Virus record (IMG/VR): IMGVR_UViG_2713896773_000026
Length of the DNA: 24,192 bases
Source of the DNA: a virus
Lineage: Duplodnaviria > Heunggongvirae > Uroviricota > Caudoviricetes
Strand: one strand, 5' to 3'
Shown: positions 1 to 21,572 of the stretch, piece after piece
How positions within the stretch are numbered: the first letter of the stretch is position 1
Layout of the letters: each line of letters opens with the position of its first letter
Notes under the pieces: generated by a model
Databases searched by the model: none
The model's input: the letters and a program-made list of their open reading frames with translations, nothing else
What the model was told of the DNA's origin: nothing
Made by a program: the position numbers and the translations under genes

Positions 1-1053
1 TTACGGGGTAATGCCAACCGCTGCCGCCACTTTGTCGCCACTTGGCAGCGTTGCCAGAGGATTGAAACGGAGCGCCGTTTCCAGATGATCCGGTGCCAGA
101 TGTGCGTAACGCATAGTCATTTTTATATCGTGGTGTCCGAGAATTTTTTGTAAGGCCAGAATATTTCCACCCGACATCATGAAGTGCGCCGCAAACGTAT
201 GGCGCAGAACGTGTGTGAGTTGACCGCGAGGGAGCACGATAGACGTTTTTTCCATCACGGATAAAAATTGAAAATAGCAGTCTGTGAAGAAATTGAACCC
301 ATCAAGCGCCATGATCTCTTCGTAAAGCTCTTTACTGATAGGGATGCTTCTGTTTTTCTTCCCCTTCGTTCTGACAAAGGTAATTCGGTATTTGGTCACC
401 TGTGAGCGGGTAAGATTTACGGCTTCACGCCAGCGTGCGCCTGTGCTTAAGCATATCTTAACTACCAGTGCCAGAATTGGGTCCTGACGTTTGCAATCAG
501 CCAGCAATTCAACAATCTGCTCATGGGTAAGCCATGCCATCTCTTTTTCTGCGATGGTGAATTTTCGCATGTTCTCCAGTGGATTCGGATACGACCATTC
601 GCCCAGACGGGATAGTTCGCTAAAAACACTACTTAGATAGCTTTGCTCCAGGTTAATGGTGACCGGGCTTGCTCCTTTCTTCCATTTCTCGCTGAAGTAG
701 ATCTCGCCTGTCAGGCGTTTATCTCGATAGTGGGCAAACATTTTAGAGGTGAGATCGGTTGCAAGAGGATTGCCCAGAGCGTCAACCATCAACAGCAATT
801 TGTCATAGACATGCTGCCCAGCTGTCAGAGATTTACCATGTAGTTTGAACCATAGCTCAACCACGTCTTTCAGTGTTCGACGATCCACTGATTCACCCAG
901 CCAGGGCTTTGCTTCGGTTTCTTCCATCGTGTGGCGCTCAAAAGCCAGTGCTTCGCCTTTGGTGGCGAATTGTTTACGCACACGACGCCCACTTCGTCCG
1001 GCGGGGTAACATTCACAAAGCCATTTCCCAGTGGTGAGTTTTCGTACTGCCAT
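1..1053 (-). CDS. int: Phage integrase (tyrosine recombinase, P2/186 Int family)
   Basis: C-terminal HxLRHTFA...Y catalytic region (HVLRHTFAAHF, MTMRYAHL). N-terminus MAVRKLTTGKW aligns with remembered P2 Int MAIKKLDDGRY; GGAGGG RBS upstream of the ATG at 1053. The longer ORF to 1209 is rejected. Confidence 0.9.
   Translation of the reverse strand: MAVRKLTTGKWLCECYPAGRSGRRVRKQFATKGEALAFERHTMEETEAKPWLGESVDRRTLKDVVELWFKLHGKSLTAGQHVYDKLLLMVDALGNPLATDLTSKMFAHYRDKRLTGEIYFSEKWKKGASPVTINLEQSYLSSVFSELSRLGEWSYPNPLENMRKFTIAEKEMAWLTHEQIVELLADCKRQDPILALVVKICLSTGARWREAVNLTRSQVTKYRITFVRTKGKKNRSIPISKELYEEIMALDGFNFFTDCYFQFLSVMEKTSIVLPRGQLTHVLRHTFAAHFMMSGGNILALQKILGHHDIKMTMRYAHLAPDHLETALRFNPLATLPSGDKVAAAVGITP
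19..40. repeat. attL: attL core (left copy of the 22-bp direct repeat cgctgccgccactttgtcgcca)
   Basis: 21/22 identical to 21338..21359; lies in the last codons of the integrase gene; flanks differ on both sides. Confidence 0.65.
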
Positions 1054-2143: not shown

Positions 2144-2365
2144 ATGAGACCTAACATTTCAATCACTCTTACCACGCCTCATGTGACTATTGAACGCTAT
2201 AGCGAGCTGACAGGGCTATCCATCGATACCATCAATGACATGTTGGCTGATGGACGCCTTATCCGTCACCGTCTGCGCAAAGATAAAAAACGCGAAAAAG
2301 TGATGATCAACATAGCAGCAATGACCGTTGATGCGCTTTCAGAATGCAATCTAAACCTTAATTAG
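2144..2365 (+). CDS. apl: Apl/Cox-like excisionase and transcriptional regulator
   Basis: 73-aa basic protein, first gene of the rightward early operon divergent from cI, as in 186/P2. Confidence 0.65.
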
Positions 2366-3971: not shown

Positions 3972-4198
3972 TGGCTGATGCAATGGATCTCGTACAGCAG
4001 CGCGTTGAAGAAGAACGCCAGCGCCATATCCGTGCAGCCCGTGCCAAATCACCGGGCGTGTCACGCGTACTTTGCATTGAATGTGAAGCGCCAATTCCGC
4101 CAGCACGACGCCGCGCCATTCCGGGAGTGCAGCTTTGCATTACCTGTCAGGAAATCGCAGAACTGAAAGGCAAACATTACAACGGAGGTGCTGTATGA
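3971..4198 (+). CDS. TraR/DksA-family C4 zinc-finger protein
   Basis: CxxC-X17-CxxC (CIECEAPIPPARRRAIPGVQLCITC); 75 aa; typical of P2-like early regions. Confidence 0.8.
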   Translation: MADAMDLVQQRVEEERQRHIRAARAKSPGVSRVLCIECEAPIPPARRRAIPGVQLCITCQEIAELKGKHYNGGAV

Positions 4199-5052
4199 GC
4201 ACCATCCTGAAATGGGCGGGAAATAAAACCGCCATTATGCCAGAACTGAAAAAATACCTTCCTGCTGGCCCGCGACTGGTTGAACCTTTCGCGGGTTCCT
4301 GTGCTGTGATGATGGAAACGGATTATCCCAGCTATCTGGTTGCGGATATTAATCCTGATTTAATCAACCTCTATAAAAAGGTTGCCGCTGATTGTGAATC
4401 GTTTATATCTCGCGCCAGAGTTTTATTTGAGATCGCAAACAGGGAGGTGGCTTATTACAACATAAGGCAGGAGTTTAACTGCTCAACTGAAATTACTGAT
4501 TTCATGAAAGCGGTATATTTCCTGTATCTCAATCGTCACGGTTACCGTGGTTTATGTCGCTATAACAAGAGCGGGCATTTCAACATTCCCTACGGTAATT
4601 ATAAAAATCCGTATTTCCCTGAAAAAGAACTTCGCACATTTGCAGAAAAAGCCCAGCGAGCAACGTTTATCTGCGCCAGCTTTGATGAAACGCTGGCGAT
4701 GTTGAAGGCGGGAGATGTGGTGTATTGCGATCCGCCATATGACGGTACGTTTTCCGGCTATCACACTGATGGTTTCACTGAAGATGACCAGTATCACCTG
4801 GCATCCGTTCTTGAACATCGGTCATCAGAAGGACATCCGGTCATTGTTTCTAACAGTGACACATCCCTGATCCGTTCGCTGTATCGCAATTTTACTCACC
4901 ACTATATCAAGGTAAAACGCAGCATCGGTGTGGCAGCTGGCGAGGGTAAATCAGCAACAGAAATCATTGCTGTTTCCGGGCCGCGCTGCTGGATGGGATT
5001 TGATTATTCGCGTGGCGTGGATAGTTCTGCCGTGTACGGAGTACGTGCATGA
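4195..5052 (+). CDS. dam: DNA adenine methyltransferase (Dam-like, orphan MTase)
   Basis: N-terminal AdoMet motif LKWAGNK...EPFAGSCAV and catalytic DPPY motif ([10 protein letters not shown]); ATGA overlap with the upstream stop. Confidence 0.9.
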
Positions 5053-8433: not shown

Positions 8434-9552
8434 ATGTATCTTTTCAAGTATTACCGTCCGGACTTCTTCTTCGAGAAAGCTATTCGTTATAATGAATTAT
8501 ATTTTTCCGCTCCTGCGCAATTGAATGATCCCAATGATCTCAATATAGATTATCGCTTCGATAATAAATTGAAATTATGGGATATTTTATTGCGTTCTCC
8601 TTGCGATAAATCCTATAAAAATTTGAGTCACATATTGGATTTGAGTGATTTGAAAATACATAAGGGATTGAATCGTATTTTTAGAGGAAAAAAAATAAAA
8701 AGTAGCATTGAGTCATTAGATAGCCTGTTTGACTCACACGTTGATGAGATACGTAAGATCATAGATGATGGTTTACTACCTATCAATGTGATTAATTCTG
8801 CTATTTATGGAAATATTCCTGAACCACGCCAATATTTGGTTTCACTTTGCGAGAACAGTATCAAAGAAAGGTTGTATAGGAAGATAGTTCCTGCAGTATT
8901 CAGTGTGTCATTTTCAGCTAATGCGTTAGATCGTATGATGTGGGCGCATTATGCTGCTGGCTTTAGTGGTTGTGTTGTGATTTATGAAACGCAGGATTTT
9001 AATATTGATGGTATACCCTATACTGGAATGAAGCTAAGAGAAAATTTATTTTCATCAGATAAATTTAATTTTCCAGTTAAGCCAATAAAATATAGTAATC
9101 AGGCTAAAGAGGTTTCACTTCTAGACCCAAGCGCAAATGTTGCAGAGTTATTTTTAACTAAAAATAGATTTTGGAGATATGAAGCTGAATATCGAATGTT
9201 TATTCCGGAGGCAAATGCAGGAATAGGGAGTGAGCGGCATGTTCAAAGACGCGTAAATCGAAATATTGGACATATTTTTCATCATGATGCTAATGTTGTT
9301 AAAGGGATCATTTTTGGTCCTAGAATGTGTGAAATGAAAAAAGAAAGCATATGGAATTGTATCAAGTCAAATATGGAGAATTCAAATTCAACAATATGTT
9401 ATTTTTTTGACTCTGAGTTATTAGCATCAGGAAAGATTACTATTTCAAAAGGGCAACGAGCGGAAAAAATGAAAAATTTCACTTTGTTCAGGAACAAGTT
9501 AAGTCAGACGGAAATGGCTAAAGTTTTGAAGGAAATTGGCATTACGAACTAA
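8434..9552 (+). CDS. AT-rich cargo gene: 372-aa protein with a DUF2971-like N-terminal motif; candidate stand-alone anti-phage or accessory protein
   Basis: Long ORF, markedly AT-rich versus the prophage backbone; N-terminus LFKYYRPDFFFEKAIRYNELYFSAPAQLNDPND resembles the DUF2971 signature as remembered; own terminator downstream. Confidence 0.6.
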   Translation: MYLFKYYRPDFFFEKAIRYNELYFSAPAQLNDPNDLNIDYRFDNKLKLWDILLRSPCDKSYKNLSHILDLSDLKIHKGLNRIFRGKKIKSSIESLDSLFDSHVDEIRKIIDDGLLPINVINSAIYGNIPEPRQYLVSLCENSIKERLYRKIVPAVFSVSFSANALDRMMWAHYAAGFSGCVVIYETQDFNIDGIPYTGMKLRENLFSSDKFNFPVKPIKYSNQAKEVSLLDPSANVAELFLTKNRFWRYEAEYRMFIPEANAGIGSERHVQRRVNRNIGHIFHHDANVVKGIIFGPRMCEMKKESIWNCIKSNMENSNSTICYFFDSELLASGKITISKGQRAEKMKNFTLFRNKLSQTEMAKVLKEIGITN

Positions 9553-9748: not shown

Positions 9749-9777
9749 AGATGGGATCATTCTGAGGAAAAGTGGAT

Positions 9778-10683
9778 ATGAAAAAGAAAACTATTCCGGA
9801 GTTGCAGAAGCAAAATCTGGCAAATTTAATTAAAAGTCGGCTTTTTCAACAGAAAAATAAAAATAAAGTTACTGTTTTCCTTTGCGGGGGCGATTTGAAT
9901 GATCCGTTTTTTTGTAGAAATAAAGTTAAAAGAGTGTTGGAAACACATCCCAAAATAGAAATATTCTATCCTGAGGAGTTGTTTGATGAGCTTTTGTATG
10001 GACAAGGTCAGCATAGTCTTTTAAGTTTGGAGAATATTTTAGCTGATTCAGTCGATGTTATTATTATTATTCCTGAAAGCCCAGGGTCTTTCGCTGAATT
10101 GGGCGCATTTTCAAATAATGAAAAACTGTGCAAAAAAATGATATGTCTTCAGGATGACAAATTCAAACTTAAAAAAAGCTTTCTTAATTATGGGCCTATA
10201 AAACTGCTTCGGCGTGCTAATAGCGGTGCAGTATTGCGAGGAGATTTGTCGACTCTTGAAAGCTTGAGTACAGGTAAAGCTTTTTATAATAGAATTATAA
10301 AAAGTATTAATGACATCAAAAAAAATAACCCAGTTAATCACTCAATAGATAATATTCTTCACGCTCGGCGTTTTATACTGCCATGTATATATTTGATGGA
10401 TGGTATAGATAATATACTTCTATATGAGCTATTACATTTGGTGACTAAGAAAGATGCTATTCTTTGTGAAATTATCGTTAAGTCTGTTATTTCAAGCTTG
10501 ATTAAAGAGTCAATAATTAGGCGTTCAGTTCAAGGATACCATATTACAGAAATTGGTATGCAATACGTTCTTGAGCATTTTGATCGAAAGGCTTTGGACA
10601 ATCTACGACTGGATATGATGAACTTCGAAAATCGTGGTAAAACAATACTCCACTATGATAGGATGCGTTTTGCGCACCCTTAG
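9778..10683 (+). CDS. Retron effector, nucleoside 2-deoxyribosyltransferase-like (NDT) N-terminal domain with a C-terminal putative DNA-binding domain
   Basis: VTVFLCGGDLNDP and IIIIPESPGSFAELGAF motifs typical of the NDT fold; GAGGAAA RBS; 3' end overlaps the retron a1 repeat; AT-rich. Confidence 0.7.
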   Translation: MKKKTIPELQKQNLANLIKSRLFQQKNKNKVTVFLCGGDLNDPFFCRNKVKRVLETHPKIEIFYPEELFDELLYGQGQHSLLSLENILADSVDVIIIIPESPGSFAELGAFSNNEKLCKKMICLQDDKFKLKKSFLNYGPIKLLRRANSGAVLRGDLSTLESLSTGKAFYNRIIKSINDIKKNNPVNHSIDNILHARRFILPCIYLMDGIDNILLYELLHLVTKKDAILCEIIVKSVISSLIKESIIRRSVQGYHITEIGMQYVLEHFDRKALDNLRLDMMNFENRGKTILHYDRMRFAHP

Positions 10684-10831
10684 CGAGTGGCTTCTCCGGA
10701 AGTTCACTGGACAGTGTTTCGCTGTCCTACATACAATCTGAAGTTTTACCAGTTCCCTCATTGAAAGGAGAACATCTCCCGATGTTCTCCTTTCACTTCG
10801 GAATCTGATTTTTATGACGTAAGGGTGCGCT
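10671..10831 (+). ncRNA. msr-msd: Retron msr-msd non-coding RNA (msDNA template), flanked by a1/a2 inverted repeats
   Basis: a1 TGCGCACCCTTA (10671..10682) and a2 TAAGGGTGCGC (10820..10830) form an 11-bp inverted repeat; msr hairpin GGACAG-tgtttcg-CTGTCC (10709..10727); msd hairpin AAAGGAGAACATC-tccc-GATGTTCTCCTTT (10764..10793); ends 2 nt before the RT start. Confidence 0.8.
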
Positions 10832-10832
10832 C

Positions 10833-11807
10833 ATGACTTCCGCAACACCATCTCAGGTTTTTCGCTTACGCAATCTTGGATTGCCTGTTATGTCCTCTTT
10901 AGAGGATATGTCTAGAGAAATGCGTTTATCAGTAGACATACTCCGGTTGTACATTTATCGTGCTGACAAATACTATAAGGTTTATTCGTTGCCAAAAAGA
11001 GATGGCAAGAGATCCCGCATCATTTCACAGCCATCACGTGAGCTGAAGGCATTGCAAGCTTGGGTGTTAAGAAACATCCTTGATAAGTTACATTCATCCC
11101 CATTTTCCAAAGGCTTTGAAAAAGGGCAATCAATATTAAATAATGCCAGCCCACATGTAGGAGCTAACTATGTATTAAATATTGATTTAGAAGATTGTTT
11201 TAATACTATTCTGATAGAGAAAATCTATACTGTTTTTCATTCTCTGGGGTATAACTCTACTATTTCTAATGCTTTAGCAAGATTGTGTTCATTTAATGGT
11301 TCGCTACCTCAAGGTGCACCATCTTCTCCAAAGATTGCGAATCTTGTTTTAACTAAATTAGATTATAGAATACATGGATATGCAGGTAGTAAGGGGATCG
11401 TATTTACTCGATATGCCGATGATTTGACTTTATCTGCTCAATCTTTAAAAAAAATACTTAAAGCTAAGTCATTTGTATGCTCTATAATACCAAGTGAATC
11501 TTTGAAGGTTAATTATAATAAAGTTGCGATTCATGGCCCCAAAGCAAGGAAGGAGGTTACTGGGCTCGTTTTATCTATTGATAATGTTGGAGTTGGCAGA
11601 ATACGTTATCGCGAAATTAGAAGTAAGATCCATTATCTGGCAGTAAAAAGAAATTCTGATTTCGAACATGTTAAAGGACTTATTGCGTTTGTTAAAAGTG
11701 TAGACAAGAAAAACTATAGAAAATTGATGACTTTCTCAAATAAAATGTCTGAAGCATATGGGGTTGATCTAAGTGTTCTTTTTCCTAAAAACAAAAAGGC
11801 CATTTAA
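10833..11807 (+). CDS. ret: Retron-type reverse transcriptase
   Basis: 324 aa; RT motifs NIDLEDCF, LPQGAPSSP, YTRYADDLTLS (YADD at 11412..11423) and the retron-specific VTG motif (RKEVTGLV). Confidence 0.9.
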   Translation: MTSATPSQVFRLRNLGLPVMSSLEDMSREMRLSVDILRLYIYRADKYYKVYSLPKRDGKRSRIISQPSRELKALQAWVLRNILDKLHSSPFSKGFEKGQSILNNASPHVGANYVLNIDLEDCFNTILIEKIYTVFHSLGYNSTISNALARLCSFNGSLPQGAPSSPKIANLVLTKLDYRIHGYAGSKGIVFTRYADDLTLSAQSLKKILKAKSFVCSIIPSESLKVNYNKVAIHGPKARKEVTGLVLSIDNVGVGRIRYREIRSKIHYLAVKRNSDFEHVKGLIAFVKSVDKKNYRKLMTFSNKMSEAYGVDLSVLFPKNKKAI

Positions 11808-11822: not shown

Positions 11823-12854
11823 TTAGGTAATTGAATAACTCACGAAATTAATAACTTCTTCATTTATCCATTCGTTCAGCTCTTCTAGTCTTTTTTGTAA
11901 AGGGATGAGTTCATTCCTCACAAAAACATTAGCAGCTTTCTCTACATCCCCAAATCCTCCAACATTATTAGGCATAATCCCCATCATTTGCGGTGGCACA
12001 CGATGCGCCGCCATCATGTCATCCCGGCTCACGTTCTTGATGTTCAGAAACTCATCCTTCGCCGCGACCTCTGACAACGGGATAATCTGAAGCCCGTCCT
12101 TTTTGCCGTTAGGCGAGTACATAAACAGGTTGCGGAAGTTACCCGGTCCTTTGGCGCTTTTCATCGCGTTGCGGAGGTTGTTCACGTCCTCCTGGTTCTG
12201 CGCGGCATCGGTCATGTACATGATGAAGCCAGCATGACTGCCGTTTATGTAATACTTTCGACGGAACAGCGTGGCGGACTCATTGAGCAGGGCGGACGGA
12301 ATAGCAGAAAGATAGCCGGGCAGGCCATAGATCTCCTGATTTATGTCCGGTTCCATCAGATGGAAAATGCTGCCTTTCGTGAACTGATACGGTTGCGTGG
12401 TCATGCCGTATTGCACAAACCAGTAGGTATCTAGGTCTAATCCACGTCGGGTGTATTTTGCCAGCGCAGGCTCAAGAGCGATAACTTCACCGAATCGGTT
12501 CGTGCGTTTCTCCAGGTAGGCGTTACCAAATACCAGATAGTCCTGCACAAAACGCGAAAAAGCCTGCTGGCTGAGCAGCGGATGAGGGATATAGGTACTG
12601 GTCAGAATGTTGCACTTTACTGCAATCGGGGAACTGTGATGCACGGCGGCGCGGAAGGTGCGCGCCAGTCCGTCAAAGCTGACGGGCGGCTCATACCAAC
12701 GGTCCATCTGTACGCATTCCACATAATCCAGCAGTTCTCGGCGGTCCAGAACAGGAACGGGATCGCCGAAGCTGAATGCTTCGGCTGTAGTTTGACTTTT
12801 AAGCTGGATCTGTTTCGTCGCCGCAGCGCGGTTCTTCTTACTCTTTCCCATCAA
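11823..12854 (-). CDS. Q: Portal (capsid portal protein, P2 gpQ family)
   Basis: 343 aa; position and orientation next to the terminase gene as in P2 (Q-P leftward operon). Confidence 0.85.
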   Translation of the reverse strand: MMGKSKKNRAAATKQIQLKSQTTAEAFSFGDPVPVLDRRELLDYVECVQMDRWYEPPVSFDGLARTFRAAVHHSSPIAVKCNILTSTYIPHPLLSQQAFSRFVQDYLVFGNAYLEKRTNRFGEVIALEPALAKYTRRGLDLDTYWFVQYGMTTQPYQFTKGSIFHLMEPDINQEIYGLPGYLSAIPSALLNESATLFRRKYYINGSHAGFIMYMTDAAQNQEDVNNLRNAMKSAKGPGNFRNLFMYSPNGKKDGLQIIPLSEVAAKDEFLNIKNVSRDDMMAAHRVPPQMMGIMPNNVGGFGDVEKAANVFVRNELIPLQKRLEELNEWINEEVINFVSYSIT

Positions 12855-14554
12855 AAAATCTCCACAATATTGCTGGTATTGGCGGATTCGCCCTGCAGCG
12901 GTTCGTTAAACAGTGCGTGCATCGTTGCCCAGGCCAGATCGGCGTGGCTGGCTTCTTCGCTGCGGCTGGCTTCATAGGTCGGGCGGTTGCCACTGGCGGT
13001 GGTGGCGCGACGGATTGCCATAAAGGACTGCGCTATGTCGGTGTGTCCGGCGTCAAACTCCAGACGGCGGTGGCTGATAATGTCGTAGGCCTTGAGTACC
13101 AGGGCGTTTTTAACGTTGGGGTTGTAGACAAACTCCCGGACGGCAGGAAAAAACGCTTTCACGTTCTCGTAAACCCCGTGACCAACGCCGGTTGAGTCGA
13201 TACCGATATAGGTCACGTTGTACTGTTCGGTCAGTTTTTTGATGGCGTCAGCCTGGGCGCGGAAGTCCATTCCGCGCCACTGGTGACGCTCAAGAATGCG
13301 GAACTTACCGCCCGGCACGGCTGGCGGCGCCACCACCACGCATCCGGCGCTGTCGCCGTTCTGCGTACCTTTCGCCGGGTCATATCCGATCCACACTTCG
13401 CGCCAGCCAAACGGGCGCAGGGCCAGTGCATGAAAGTCGGTCCAGACTTCCCAACTGTCCACCATGCACGCCTGCAGCTCGCTGAGTGGGAACACAGACG
13501 CGAGATCGTCCACGAACTCACACATCAGCAGGTTCTGGTATTCGTCCGGGCTGTACTCCATGCGCAACTGGTCGAGGTCGAACAGGTTACAGCCGCCGCG
13601 CACCGCATCTTCCACAGTGACTATCTGGCGGTACTGCCCGTCTGCGCACAGCAGGCCGGGGGCCAGATTGCTGTGGGACAGGTCGATGTCCACCTTATCG
13701 GCTTTGTTGCGCCCTCGGTTGAACAGCGCACCGGACCAGAACGGATAAGCACTGTGTGTCAGGCTGGATGGCGTGGAAAAATAGGTTTGTCGCCATTTTT
13801 TGTGAATAGCCATACCGGAAGCCACTTTGCGCAGCTCCTGGAATTTCGGTATCCAGAAATATTCATCCAGATACAGGTTGCCGTGGTAACTCTGGGCCGT
13901 GCGGGCATTGGTGCCGAGGAAGTACAGCGTGGCCCCGTTAGGAAGCACCATCGGATCGCCTTTCAGCTCCACCTCCACTTCTTTGGCGAAGTCGATGATG
14001 TACTGCTTAAAGACGTGGGCCTGAGCCTTGCTGGCGGAAAGGAAAATCTGGTTACGCCCGGTTAGCAGGGCGTCAATCAGGGCTTCACGGGCAAAATAGA
14101 AGGTCGCGCCGATCTGGCGTGACTTCAGCAGGTTGCGGATGCGGTTGGTTTTTCCGGCTTCCCACCAGTGGCGCTGGTAGTTGAACATGGAGGAATGGAA
14201 GATTTCTTCCAGCTTCTCAATCTGTTCATCGGTGAAAACGTTCTTTTCCGGCTGACGGCGCGGGCCTTTGTTGCGGTTGGCGACGTTAGGGTTTAAGTCG
14301 GCTTCGTTGCCGCCATTGTTAAACTTGCCGATCCGCGCATGGCGCTCCGACTGGCGCGCCAGCAGGTCAATCTCTTTGAAATCTTTCCCTTCTTTGTGCT
14401 CCTTCATAATGAGCTGGCAGTAGCGTGCGGCGGTGGTGAGCTGCATCTGATCCAGCGGCCCATAGTCACCCCACTTGTCGCGTTTTTTCCAGCTGTGAAC
14501 GGTTGCAACTTTCTCGCCCAGCATTTCAGCAATGCGGGCTATCTGCCCAGACAC
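12851..14554 (-). CDS. P: Terminase large (ATPase) subunit, P2 gpP family, 5'-truncated at a deletion junction and probably non-functional
   Basis: 567 aa; nuclease-domain-like segments; the upstream in-frame sequence is antisense to the sheath gene, so the native N-terminus and promoter are missing; the GTG start is an ORF-caller artefact. Confidence 0.8.
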
Positions 14555-14562
14555 AGCTCGGC
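14540..14562. other. Deletion junction joining the terminase 5' region to the middle of the tail sheath gene
   Basis: Terminase homology (minus strand) ends and sheath homology (plus strand, from [11 protein letters not shown]) begins within about 20 bp; scaffold, capsid, small terminase, lysis, baseplate and fibre genes are absent. Confidence 0.7.
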
Positions 14563-15363
14563 GTTAAACCGCGCATTCTCGGCGTGCCAGGCCACGACAC
14601 CAAGGCGGTAGCTACTGAGTTGCTGAGCGTGGCGCAAAGCCTGCGTGGATTTGCTTACCTGTCAGCGTATGGCTGCAAGACGGTGCAGGAGGCGATCACT
14701 TACCGTGAAAACTTCAGCCAGCGCGAAGGAATGCTGATCTGGCCCGACTTTACTGGCTGGGACATGGTGCTGAATGCCGAAGCAACGGCATATGCCACCG
14801 CCCGTGCGCTTGGTCTGCGTGCCAAAATTGATGAGCAGACTGGGTGGCACAAAAGCCTGTCCAACGTGGGTGTGAATGGTGTCACCGGAATTTCTGCAGA
14901 TGTGTTCTGGGATCTGCAGGACCCGGCAACCGATGCAGGTCTGCTGAACCAGAACGACGTTACCACGCTTGTGCGTAAAGACGGTTTCCGCTTCTGGGGT
15001 TCCCGCTGCCTGAGTGATGACCCGCTCTTTGCCTTCGAAAACTACACCCGCACGGCGCAGGTGCTGACGGACACAATGGCAGAAGCGCACATGTGGGCAG
15101 TGGACAAACCGCTGAACCCGTCGCTGGCGCGCGACATTATCGAGGGCATCCGCGCCAAAATGCGCAGCCTGGTCAGTCAGGGGTATCTCATTGGTGGTGA
15201 TTGCTGGCTGGACGAGTCGGTGAACGACAAAGACACTCTGAAAGCCGGAAAACTCACCATCGACTACGACTACACGCCAGTGCCGCCACTTGAAAACCTG
15301 ATGTTGCGTCAGCGCATCACCGATCAGTACCTGGTGAATTTCGCCAGCCAGGTCAGCGCGTAA
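14543..15363 (+). pseudogene. FI: Tail sheath protein (P2 gpFI family), C-terminal two-thirds only
   Basis: Clear similarity to remembered P2 FI from about residue 130 ([11 protein letters not shown]...WPDF...[15 protein letters not shown]...[20 protein letters not shown]); no native start or RBS. Confidence 0.8.
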
Positions 15364-21028: not shown

Positions 21029-21118
21029 TTATTCGCAATGGAGAACTTTTAAGTTTGCAAAATGGAATAATGCGGTATCATTATTGTGAATTTAGCAAAA
21101 ATGGGGAGAACTCGAAAA

Positions 21119-21337
21119 ATGATGATTTGCCCACTGTGTGGAAGTGCCGCCCATACTCGCAGCAGTTTTCAGGTATCTTCATTGACCAAAGAGCGTTACA
21201 ACCAGTGCCAGAACATTAACTGCAGCCATACTTTTGTTACCCATGAAACTTTTGTTCGTTCGATTGCAACGCCAAAAGAGTCAAATCCGGTTCAGCCGCA
21301 TCCAATGAAATCAGGACAGGTGGCGCTCTCTCTTTGA
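21119..21337 (+). CDS. ogr: Late transcription activator, Ogr/B (Delta) zinc-finger family
   Basis: 72 aa from the ATG at 21119; CPLCGSAAH...CQNINCSH zinc-finger pattern as in P2 Ogr (CPLCQHAAH...CQNVNCS). Confidence 0.85.
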   Translation: MMICPLCGSAAHTRSSFQVSSLTKERYNQCQNINCSHTFVTHETFVRSIATPKESNPVQPHPMKSGQVALSL

Positions 21338-21359
21338 CGCTGCCGCCATTTTGTCGCCA
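21338..21359. repeat. attR: attR core (right copy of the 22-bp direct repeat cgctgccgccattttgtcgcca)
   Basis: 21/22 identical to 19..40; immediately after the ogr stop. Confidence 0.65.
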
Positions 21360-21415
21360 TCGTTAAAAAACAGTGTTTCTAACATCATGATTTTAAACAG
21401 CTTAAATTTCAGGCA

Positions 21416-21460
21416 ACAAAAAACCCATCAACCTTGAACCGAAATGGCGGGGTTGATGGG
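21416..21460 (-). terminator. Candidate rho-independent terminator downstream of ybjL
   Basis: 10-bp stem CCCATCAACC/GGTTGATGGG (17-nt loop) followed on the minus strand by a U-run (plus-strand A6). Confidence 0.4.
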
Positions 21461-21572
21461 CTCCACAAAATGGGGACATCAAAGAAAAGCAGTGGCACTA
21501 ATTAAGACTGATGCCCTGCGGAAAAGTTCTGCGGTTGTGCAAAAAAATTTCATTTTCAGGGCAACTTCAGTT

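What the first reader, a model, noticed from the sequence alone, without database searches (positions are those of the whole stretch)
19..40. 22-bp direct repeat (also at 21338..21359) marks the prophage ends; insertion next to ybjL
The repeat cgctgccgcca[c/t]tttgtcgcca occurs once inside the 3' end of int and once immediately after ogr, exactly where attL and attR are expected for a P2/186-type integration. The last six int codons (1..18) would then be host-derived. The right flank is ybjL-ybjM-grxA, which in E. coli K-12 has no prophage here as far as I recall. The core is not tRNA-like.
Basis: partly seen in the sequence, partly recalled or inferred. Interest (0 to 1): 0.45.

Follow-up and report, generated by a model that had tools for sequence, protein, structure and literature searches.

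The report
Integrase arm sites, not prophage ends
The 22-bp repeat is real, but it is not the junction where the prophage recombined with the chromosome; it is the pair of integrase "arm" binding sites that phage-186-type viruses carry on both sides of their true attachment core, which here lies in the end of the small-RNA gene rybB, and this is a well-documented arrangement.

Summary
Observation confirmed: CGCTGCCGCCA[C/T]TTTGTCGCCA occurs only at 19-40 and 21338-21359 (0 expected by chance). Interpretation largely wrong. Unoccupied sites in E. coli K-12 and in FDAARGOS_536 (100% identical to the reconstructed empty site) lack the 22-mer. They carry one copy of a different sequence, TAAATTTCAGGCAACAAAAAACCCAT, which brackets the prophage as a perfect 26-bp direct repeat: left copy 74-99 bp outside the window, right copy at 21403-21428. 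This true core is the terminator end of the sRNA gene rybB (Rfam, 105 bits, 21415-21493 minus). Free phage genomes (Klebsiella phage KP12, Escherichia phage ESSI2_ev040) have a contiguous attP: ogr, 22-mer, core, 22-mer, int. Both 22-mers and window bases 1-18 are therefore phage DNA, and the last int codons are not host-derived. Each 22-mer is two tandem 11-mers (TGCCGCCACTT, TGTCGCCACTT) matching the published 186-type Int arm-site consensus. Phage 186, MHG48 and RCIP0057 have such sites in both arms, as tandem pairs in 186 and MHG48. P2 has the same layout with a different motif. The Int N-terminus has the 186-type W/E/Y residues. rybB is a published P2-like prophage site. Already known; low interest.

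The parts
19..40 (+).
   Evidence: exact position; present in contiguous attP of free phage records, 92 nt from the core
22..43 (+). P' arm tandem pair of 11-bp 186-type Int arm-type sites, TGCCGCCACTT + TGTCGCCACTT
   Evidence: both units match YRYCGCCAYTY with 0 mismatches; consensus tgccGCCActt from PMC3448106; 186 record consensus YAYCGCCAYTY
1..1053 (-). int, tyrosine integrase with 186-type N-terminal arm-binding residues W11/E14/Y16; its last codons overlap the P' arm sites
   Evidence: Pfam Int_N, Phage_integrase; alignment with 186 and P2 Int
2144..2365 (+). Apl/Cox-like excisionase-repressor gene, the expected directionality factor
   Evidence: phrog_575, E=6e-31
21119..21337 (+). 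ogr/Delta late activator gene, the last phage gene before attR; its stop codon abuts the right 22-mer
21338..21359 (+).
21341..21362 (+). P arm tandem pair of 11-bp arm-type sites, TGCCGCCATTT + TGTCGCCATCG
   Evidence: 0 and 2 mismatches to YRYCGCCAYTY; same position in E. coli HS, strain 504239, 4LV2017 and KP12
21403..21428 (+). True attR core, TAAATTTCAGGCAACAAAAAACCCAT. It is a perfect 26-bp direct repeat of the attL core, which lies outside the window at L004:2901-2926 (window -99 to -74). The last 14 bp (21415-21428) are shared with K-12 attB
   Evidence: attL/attR annotated on the 19-20 bp CAGGCAACAAAAAACCCAT part by the depositors of KY271398
21415..21493 (-). rybB sRNA gene, intact; its terminator 3' half and U-tract form the attachment core
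   Evidence: RF00110, 105.3 bits, model 1-79 of 79; terminator fold

Best explanation
The two 22-mers are the P-arm and P'-arm integrase arm-type binding sites of the attP of a 186-type (Fels-2 group, Felsduovirus-like) P2-family phage. Each is a tandem pair of 11-bp units. The phage integrated by Int-mediated recombination between a core in its attP and the 3' end of the host sRNA gene rybB, between rcdA and ybjL. Integration splits attP at the core, so one arm-site pair ends up just inside attL, overlapping the end of int, and the other just inside attR, after ogr. That is why they look like a terminal direct repeat. By analogy with P2, 186, HP1 and lambda, the N-terminal domain of Int binds these arm sites while its core-binding and catalytic domains bind the core. 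Together with bending proteins (IHF) and, for excision, the Apl/Cox-like protein, this builds the recombination complex. Shown here: the position, copy number, orientation and conservation of the sites, their absence from attB, their presence in intact attP, their match to the published consensus, and the matching Int N-terminal residues. Inferred: that Int physically binds them in this phage.
For: (1) The empty sites lack the 22-mer and have one core. (2) The lysogen 82.0311 (L004) is identical to the window over the 1300 bases compared, and a perfect 26-bp repeat brackets its insertion. (3) Contiguous attP with pair-core-pair occurs in KP12 and ESSI2_ev040; the 22-mers are 183 bp apart start to start in KP12. 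[quoted passage not shown] (5) 186 and Yersinia phage MHG48 have tandem 11-mer pairs in both arms, and Klebsiella phage RCIP0057 has CGCCA-type repeats in both arms, although their cores differ. P2 has the same 11-bp-periodic pairs with TGTGGNCA instead, and its annotated Int P' arm site also lies inside the int 3' end. (6) Int has W11/E14/Y16 as in 186, against Y/D/R in P2. These are the residues proposed to discriminate arm-site type. (7) In E. coli B and HS a moron ORF separates the P' 22-mer from int, yet the 22-mer is conserved, so int coding does not explain it. (8) Tandem pairs occur nowhere else in the window. (9) rybB is a published insertion site for these prophages.
Against: There is no binding experiment for this phage. 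In the 186 record the arm sites are labelled 'predicted'; only the P2 sites are annotated as Int protein-binding regions. The second unit of the P-arm pair (TGTCGCCATCG) departs from the consensus at 2 of 11 positions. Single 11-mers matching the motif also occur at three places inside coding sequence (13788, 15281, 16332), so one unit alone is not specific. The KP12 and ESSI2_ev040 records may derive from induced prophages rather than independently propagated phages, but their attP is contiguous either way.
Confidence: 0.9

Rival explanations
1. One reading: the 22-mer is the common core of attL and attR. Crossover happened within it, and everything left of window position 19 is host DNA.
For: It is a near-perfect direct repeat located close to int on one side and ogr on the other, which is where P2-type att sites are expected.
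Against: It is absent from unoccupied sites, including one 100% identical to the reconstructed empty site of this lineage. It is present twice in contiguous attP. About 92 bp to the left of the left copy and 43 bp to the right of the right copy are still phage DNA, ending at a different 26-bp repeat that is present once at attB. Depositors of 4LV2017 annotated att on that other repeat.
Confidence: 0.01
2. The 22-mers are binding sites for a different attP-binding protein (Apl/Cox-like excisionase, IHF or CI) rather than for Int.
For: The attP arms of 186 and P2 also carry Apl/Cox and IHF sites, and no footprint exists for this phage.
Against: The sequence matches the Int arm consensus, not an A/T-rich IHF-type site. 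In 186 and P2 the Apl/Cox sites are on one side only, between the core and the P' Int sites, whereas the 22-mers are on both sides. The motif co-varies with the Int N-terminal residue type across P2 versus 186-type phages (PMC3448106). A separate pair of 18-nt repeats between the core and the P' pair better fits the Apl/IHF position.
Confidence: 0.05
3. The repeat has no function: it is a historical duplication, a relic of a nested or tandem integration at an older att site, or a by-product of int coding sequence.
For: The left copy overlaps int codons. A weak look-alike exists in the rcdA 3' end.
Against: It keeps the same spacing to the core in E. coli, Klebsiella and free phage records: the P' pair is 95 nt from the core, and the P pair is 52 nt from the 14-bp shared core. 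It is conserved where it is intergenic (E. coli B and HS). The right copy is non-coding. The same architecture appears in distant relatives with about 49-56% identical Int and different cores. The rcdA look-alike score is reached by unrelated sequences.
Confidence: 0.03

Closest known systems
Phage 186 attP, Int arm-type sites (consensus YAYCGCCAYTY; 3 sites left and 2 right of the core; NC_001317 annotation)
   Same: Tandem 11-bp CGCCA-type units in direct orientation on both sides of the core. The P' pair is about 95-97 bp from the crossover side of the core. There is an Apl/Cox-like excisionase, a CI/CII/Fil lysogeny module and the Int N-terminal W/E/Y residues. The core is the 3' end of a small stable RNA gene that the phage reconstitutes.
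   Different: 186 targets tRNA-Ile (ileY) with a 36-bp common sequence, while this phage targets the sRNA gene rybB. Position 2 of the unit is G here and A in 186. 186 has a third, inverted P-arm site and an extra ORF (orf69) between the P' sites and int. The Int proteins are only 49% identical over the first 100 residues aligned.
Phage P2 attP (Int P arm, IHF, core, Cox, Int P' arm; NC_001895 annotation)
   Same: Same order: ogr, P arm, core, P' arm, int. Each arm has two units with 11-bp periodicity. The P' arm site lies inside the 3' end of the int coding sequence.
   Different: The P2 arm motif is TGTGGNCA, with no CGCCA-type sites. Its Int N-terminus has Y/D/R. P2 has a C/Cox switch instead of CI/Apl, and its core is intergenic and unrelated.
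rybB-inserted P2-like prophages: PhiECO1/2/3 and PhiSEN1 (PMC3448106), Rybb*W/B/Cr (PMC3032704), E. coli defence hotspot #29 Felsduovirus (PMC10121019), Kpn38RybB (PMC4048246), Klebsiella phage 4LV2017
   Same: Same insertion site, same int end and same ogr-att region: E. coli HS PhiECO1 has identical pair and core spacing, and 4LV2017 is 98.8% identical over ogr-attR. All carry defence cargo, and E. coli B's copy carries retron Ec86.
   Different: This copy is a ~21.5 kb deletion derivative lacking the capsid-to-tail-fibre genes, and it carries its own cargo set (PDC-S31 candidate plus an Ec86-like type II-A retron).
Lambda attP arm-type sites (P1, P2, P'1-3)
   Same: Same principle: a heterobivalent integrase whose N-terminal domain binds arm sites distant from the core, so attP is complex and attB is simple (established knowledge; also stated in PMC3448106).
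   Different: Unrelated site sequences, and a different number and arrangement of sites.

Membership tests
186-type Int arm-type binding sites in attP of P2-family phages | Sequence matches the arm consensus tgccGCCActt / YAYCGCCAYTY | tested here: met
   The P' units TGCCGCCACTT and TGTCGCCACTT match the Nilsson consensus at 11 of 11 and 10 of 11 positions, and each matches the 186 consensus at 10 of 11. The P units are TGCCGCCATTT and TGTCGCCATCG.
186-type Int arm-type binding sites in attP of P2-family phages | [quoted passage not shown] | tested here: met
   One tandem pair on each side, all on the + strand, in the window plus L004 and in contiguous attP of KP12 and ESSI2_ev040.
186-type Int arm-type binding sites in attP of P2-family phages | Belong to phage DNA: present in attP and absent from attB | tested here: met
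   Absent from L001, L003 and L018; present in phage records L006 and L012.
186-type Int arm-type binding sites in attP of P2-family phages | Cognate integrase has the 186-type N-terminal arm-binding domain (W/E/Y discriminator residues) | tested here: met
   W11, E14 and Y16 as in 186 Int; P2 Int has Y, D and R (criterion from PMC3448106).
186-type Int arm-type binding sites in attP of P2-family phages | Int protein physically binds the sites, and they are required for recombination | not testable with these tools
   Needs a footprint or EMSA and site mutagenesis. The 186 record itself labels its sites 'predicted'.
   0 matches with up to 3 mismatches in L001 and L018.
   Two copies 183 bp apart in KP12; two pairs in ESSI2_ev040.
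   Homology with the empty site resumes only at the 26-bp core: 92 nt to the left of the left copy and 43 nt to the right of the right copy.
rybB-targeting P2-like (Felsduovirus-type) prophage | Inserted at the 3' end of rybB between rcdA and ybjL, with rybB kept intact | tested here: met
   The Rfam match covers the whole RybB model.
rybB-targeting P2-like (Felsduovirus-type) prophage | 186-type lysogeny module plus P2-type late genes | tested here: met
   The lysogeny and replication genes found are CI, Apl/Cox-like, CII, Fil and GPA. The late genes found are portal, terminase, tube, E, tape measure, U, D and Ogr.
rybB-targeting P2-like (Felsduovirus-type) prophage | Complete virion gene set (viable phage) | tested here: not met
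   Terminase abuts a truncated sheath gene at about 14540, and the capsid, lysis, baseplate and fibre genes are absent. The prophage is about 21.5 kb against about 31-33 kb for relatives.

The most novel reading that the evidence does not exclude
The most novel reading still open is that the arm-site pair embedded in the last codons of int, and the pair abutting the ogr stop codon, do more than assemble the recombination complex. For example, Int bound there might feed back on int or ogr expression. Separately, the phage's lysogenic-operon terminator doubles as the recombination core by mimicking the rybB terminator, which would hint at how a new RNA-gene target was acquired. Neither idea was tested, and the first is equally open for P2 itself.
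Probability: 0.05. Interest if true: 0.35.

Novelty: already known. Interest (0 to 1): 0.08.

Why it matters
It matters mainly for annotation. The direct repeat nearest the ends of a prophage that uses a lambda/P2-type integrase can be the arm-site pair rather than the crossover core. Calling it the att site here misplaces both boundaries by about 45-95 bp. It also wrongly assigns the end of int to the host and hides the fact that the target is an RNA gene, rybB. Biologically, the site, the phage group and the arm-site consensus are all published, so nothing new follows.

Tried and rejected
- **22-mer as att core:** rejected by the empty sites and by intact attP.
- **Insertion into the rcdA coding sequence:** I first wondered whether the prophage had inserted into the 3' end of rcdA, because K-12 has TGACGCTG-CATTTTGTCACC there. 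rcdA is intact in the lysogen. The similarity scores 27, above all 2000 shuffles, but unrelated real sequence windows reach 27-28, so I treat it as probable chance.
- **Coding constraint of int:** rejected because the 22-mer is conserved where it is intergenic (E. coli B and HS) and the right copy is non-coding.
- **P2-type arm motif TGTGGACA:** not present in these arms.
- **Other RNA families:** Rfam at gathering threshold found nothing in the window other than RybB, and no retron msr/msd model matched.
- **Supplementary Fig. S4 of PMC3448106 (arm-site alignment):** not held as text, so I rebuilt the comparison from phage records.

Full report
**1. The observation**

The 22-mer CGCTGCCGCCAYTTTGTCGCCA occurs exactly twice in the window, at 19-40 and 21338-21359, both on the + strand. 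The copies differ only at position 12 (C versus T). No further match exists with up to 3 mismatches, and none appeared in 100 dinucleotide-preserving shuffles. The left copy lies in the 3' end of the integrase gene (CDS 1-1053, minus strand). The right copy begins at the base after the ogr stop codon. The right flank is ybjL, ybjM, grxA. The description is correct.

**2. The empty site does not contain it**

The right flank is present in 5,419 of 5,426 complete E. coli genomes. K-12-type genomes align only from window position ~21403 or ~21415 onward, not from 21360.

In BW25113 and G6/7 the rcdA stop codon is followed by TAGATAAGTTTTAGATAACAAAAAACCCAT|CAACC..., and there is no 22-mer.

The window is identical, over the 1300 bases compared, to E. 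coli 82.0311 (NZ_CP122454; L004:3001 = window 1). That genome supplies the left flank the window lacks: an intact rcdA, then TAAATTTCAGGCAACAAAAAACCCAT at L004:2901-2926 (window -99 to -74), then 92 nt that are absent from K-12, then the left 22-mer.

The same 26-mer occurs once in the window, at 21403-21428, and K-12 homology resumes immediately after it. The insertion is therefore bracketed by a perfect 26-bp direct repeat. Both 22-mers lie inside it, 92 nt and 43 nt from the respective core copies.

I built the predicted empty site (left flank, one core, right flank; 299 nt) and searched all genomes. FDAARGOS_536 matches it at 100% over its full length, and 4,227 of 5,426 genomes have the site uninterrupted. 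That locus has one 26-mer and no 22-mer.

**3. Intact attP in phage records**

The ogr-to-core segment is 98-99% identical in a set of Klebsiella phage records.

In Klebsiella phage KP12 (OM835953) the region is contiguous: ogr stop, CTCTGCCGCCAATTTGTCGCCA, 43 nt, TAAATTTCAGACAACAAAAAACCCAT, 92 nt ending in ...TTACGGGGTAATGCCAAC, CGCTGCCGCCACTTTGTCGCCA, int. The two 22-mers are 183 bp apart start to start.

Escherichia phage ESSI2_ev040, whose Int is 86% identical, has the same pair, core, pair layout with the same spacings.

So window bases 1-18 and both 22-mers are phage DNA, and the last six int codons are not host-derived.

The depositors of Klebsiella phage 4LV2017 annotated attL and attR on (G)CAGGCAACAAAAAACCCAT, not on the 22-mer.

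**4. What the real core is**

Rfam places a full-length RybB sRNA (RF00110, 105.3 bits against a gathering score of 40) at 21415-21493 on the minus strand. The 14 bp shared by all attB alleles, AACAAAAAACCCAT, is the complement of the descending terminator stem plus the U-tract of rybB.

The phage therefore targets the 3' end of a small RNA gene and restores it, as tRNA-targeting phages do.

At attL and attP, the same 14 bp form the 3' half and U-tract of a second hairpin, AACCCGTTTACATAAATGGGTT-TTTTGTT on the minus strand, made with phage P'-arm sequence downstream of int. This is probably the terminator of the lysogenic operon. The 186 record annotates an analogous terminator in its attP. 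The terminator function is inferred, not shown.

**5. What the 22-mer is**

Shifted by three bases, each 22-mer is two tandem 11-mers:

| Arm | Window position | Units |
|---|---|---|
| P' | 22-43 | TGCCGCCACTT + TGTCGCCACTT |
| P | 21341-21362 | TGCCGCCATTT + TGTCGCCATCG |

Nilsson et al. [quoted passage not shown] They give a P2-type consensus tgTGGaCa and a 186-type consensus tgccGCCActt. They also state that the arm sites are recognised by the Int N-terminal domain.

The RefSeq record of phage 186 annotates 'predicted Int arm-type recognition sequences; consensus = YAYCGCCAYTY; 3 sites to left of attP and 2 sites to right'.

My scan of comparator phages gave the following:

| Phage | P arm | P' arm | Note |
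|---|---|---|---|
| 186 | CACCGCCATTC-TATCGCCACTC | TACCGCCACTT-TATCGCCATTC | tRNA-Ile core |
| Yersinia phage MHG48 | tandem CGCCA-type pair | tandem CGCCA-type pair, inside the int 3' end | tRNA-Ile core |
| Klebsiella phage RCIP0057 | CGCCA-type repeats, less regular | TGCCGCCACAT-TGTCGCCAACA, inside the int 3' end | unrelated core |
| P2 | TGTGGTCA..TGTGGACG, 11-bp period | TGTGGACA..TGTGGACA, 11-bp period | P' site (24470-24496) inside the int CDS, which ends at 24462; no CGCCA-type site |

The Int encoded here has W11, E14 and Y16, like 186 Int. P2 Int has Y, D and R at those columns. These are the discriminating residues proposed in PMC3448106.

In E. coli B and E. coli HS a small extra ORF sits between the P' 22-mer and int, yet the 22-mer is conserved. 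Its conservation is therefore not a by-product of int coding.

Single 11-mers matching the motif also occur at three coding positions in the window, but tandem pairs occur only in the two arms.

**6. Mechanism, and what is shown versus inferred**

*Shown:* the site anatomy, its conservation and spacing, its absence from attB, its presence in attP, the consensus match, and the matching Int N-terminal type. An Apl/Cox-like gene is present (phrog_575), as are CI, CII and Fil.

*Inferred from P2, 186 and lambda:* Int bridges the arm sites and the core through its two DNA-binding domains. IHF and the Apl-like protein bend the arms and set directionality. Strand exchange occurs within the 14-bp segment shared with every attB allele.

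Two 18-nt direct repeats (TAATGAAAACAATAAGTT and TAGTAAAAACAATAAGTT, 19 bp apart) lie between the core and the P' pair. This is where 186 has its IHF and Apl sites. They are candidate Apl or IHF sites and remain untested. They lie outside the window.

**7. Comparison with what is known**

rybB is a published insertion site for P2-like prophages:
- The E. coli W genome paper lists 'rybB ncRNA' with Rybb*W, Rybb*B and Rybb*Cr, and notes that Rybb*B carries retron Ec86 (PMC3032704).
- A pan-genome study describes hotspot #29, occupied only by Felsduovirus prophages integrated within rybB, in 109 genomes (PMC10121019).
- Klebsiella island Kpn38RybB lies 'precisely within' the RybB gene (PMC4048246).
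- PhiECO1 (E. coli HS), PhiECO2, PhiECO3 and PhiSEN1 share one site (PMC3448106). I confirmed that PhiECO1 sits between rcdA and ybjL with the same pair and core spacing.

In the collection searched here, 1,135 of 5,426 complete E. coli genomes carry this int end.

**8. Verdict**

The repeat is real and functional-looking, but it is the integrase arm-site pair of a 186-type attP, split by integration. It is not the attachment core. The true core is 26 bp in this lineage (14 bp shared with K-12) in the rybB terminator, at 21403-21428 and just outside the window on the left. Site, phage group and arm consensus are all already described, so the finding is ordinary and scores low.

**9. Other things seen**

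- The prophage is a ~21.5 kb deletion derivative. At about 14540 the terminase gene abuts the C-terminal part of the tail sheath gene, and the capsid, lysis, baseplate and fibre genes are missing.
- Between replication gene A and the portal gene it carries a PDC-S31 candidate defence gene and a type II-A retron. The retron has an NDT effector and an RT that scores 416 bits against the PDB retron Ec86 RT.
- The rcdA 3' end contains a weak look-alike of the P-arm 22-mer. It is probably chance.

Noticed in passing
window 21415-21493 (minus strand): Full-length rybB sRNA gene (Rfam RF00110, 105 bits).
   Followed up: yes
window ~14503-15363, junction near 14539/14540: Internal deletion: the terminase large subunit gene (12851-14554, minus) directly abuts the C-terminal part of the tail sheath gene. 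The scaffold, capsid, lysis, baseplate and tail-fibre genes are missing, so the prophage (~21.5 kb) cannot make virions, although int, cI, the apl-like gene and both att sites look intact.
   Followed up: partly
window 9772-11807: Type II-A retron cargo: an NDT-like effector (9772-10683; PADLOC NDT_II-A, E=3e-97) and a reverse transcriptase (10833-11807; RT_II-A, E=5e-123; 416 bits to the PDB retron Ec86 RT). The msr/msd RNA was not located, and Rfam gave no match.
   Followed up: partly
window 8434-9552: 372-aa ORF matching the PADLOC candidate defence family PDC-S31 (E=1e-23) and, below the Pfam cut-off, DUF2971. It sits in the known P2 cargo hotspot between gene A and the portal gene.
   Followed up: partly
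L004:2920-2941 (window about -80 to -59; also L006:2837-2858): Hairpin AACCCGTTTACATAAATGGGTT followed by TTTTGTT on the minus strand, downstream of int. It straddles the phage P' arm and the core, and is likely the lysogenic-operon terminator. It shares its 3' half and U-tract with the rybB terminator. Phage 186 has an annotated lysogenic-operon terminator with a similar GGCAACAAAAAGGCC sequence in its attP.
   Followed up: partly
L006:2858-2894 (equivalent to L004 ~2941-2977, just left of the window): Two 18-nt direct repeats (TAATGAAAACAATAAGTT and TAGTAAAAACAATAAGTT), 19 bp apart, between the core and the P' arm pair. This is where 186 has its IHF and Apl sites, so they are candidate Apl or IHF binding sites.
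   Followed up: no
L005:3076-3408 and L009:1647-1916: In E. coli B (T7Express) and E. coli HS a small hypothetical ORF is inserted between the conserved P' 22-mer and a diverged int allele. In E. coli B, homology with the window breaks exactly at the end of the 22-mer.
   Followed up: partly
L018:1622-1647 versus L001:2501-2526: attB is polymorphic. Some unoccupied E. coli sites are identical to the phage core over 26 bp (TAAATTTCAGGCAACAAAAAACCCAT), while K-12 differs at 4 of the first 12 positions and shares only the last 14 bp. E. coli B's attL keeps the K-12-type left part, which places the crossover within the 14 bp.
   Followed up: partly
L001:2417-2441 (rcdA 3' end): TGACGCTG----CATTTTGTCaCC resembles the P-arm 22-mer and its 3 preceding bases. 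It lies on the same side of the core at a comparable distance (96 bp versus 81 bp). The local alignment score of 27 beats 2000 shuffles, but unrelated real windows reach 27-28, so it is probably chance.
   Followed up: partly
window 21086-21428 versus Klebsiella phage records (H71-H100): The ogr-attR segment is 98-100% identical to prophage-derived Klebsiella pneumoniae phage records, and Klebsiella has the same rybB attB. This suggests recent exchange of this phage group between the two genera.
   Followed up: no
window 4135-5052: A D12-class N6-adenine DNA methyltransferase (Dam-like) gene lies in the early region, upstream of replication gene A.
   Followed up: no
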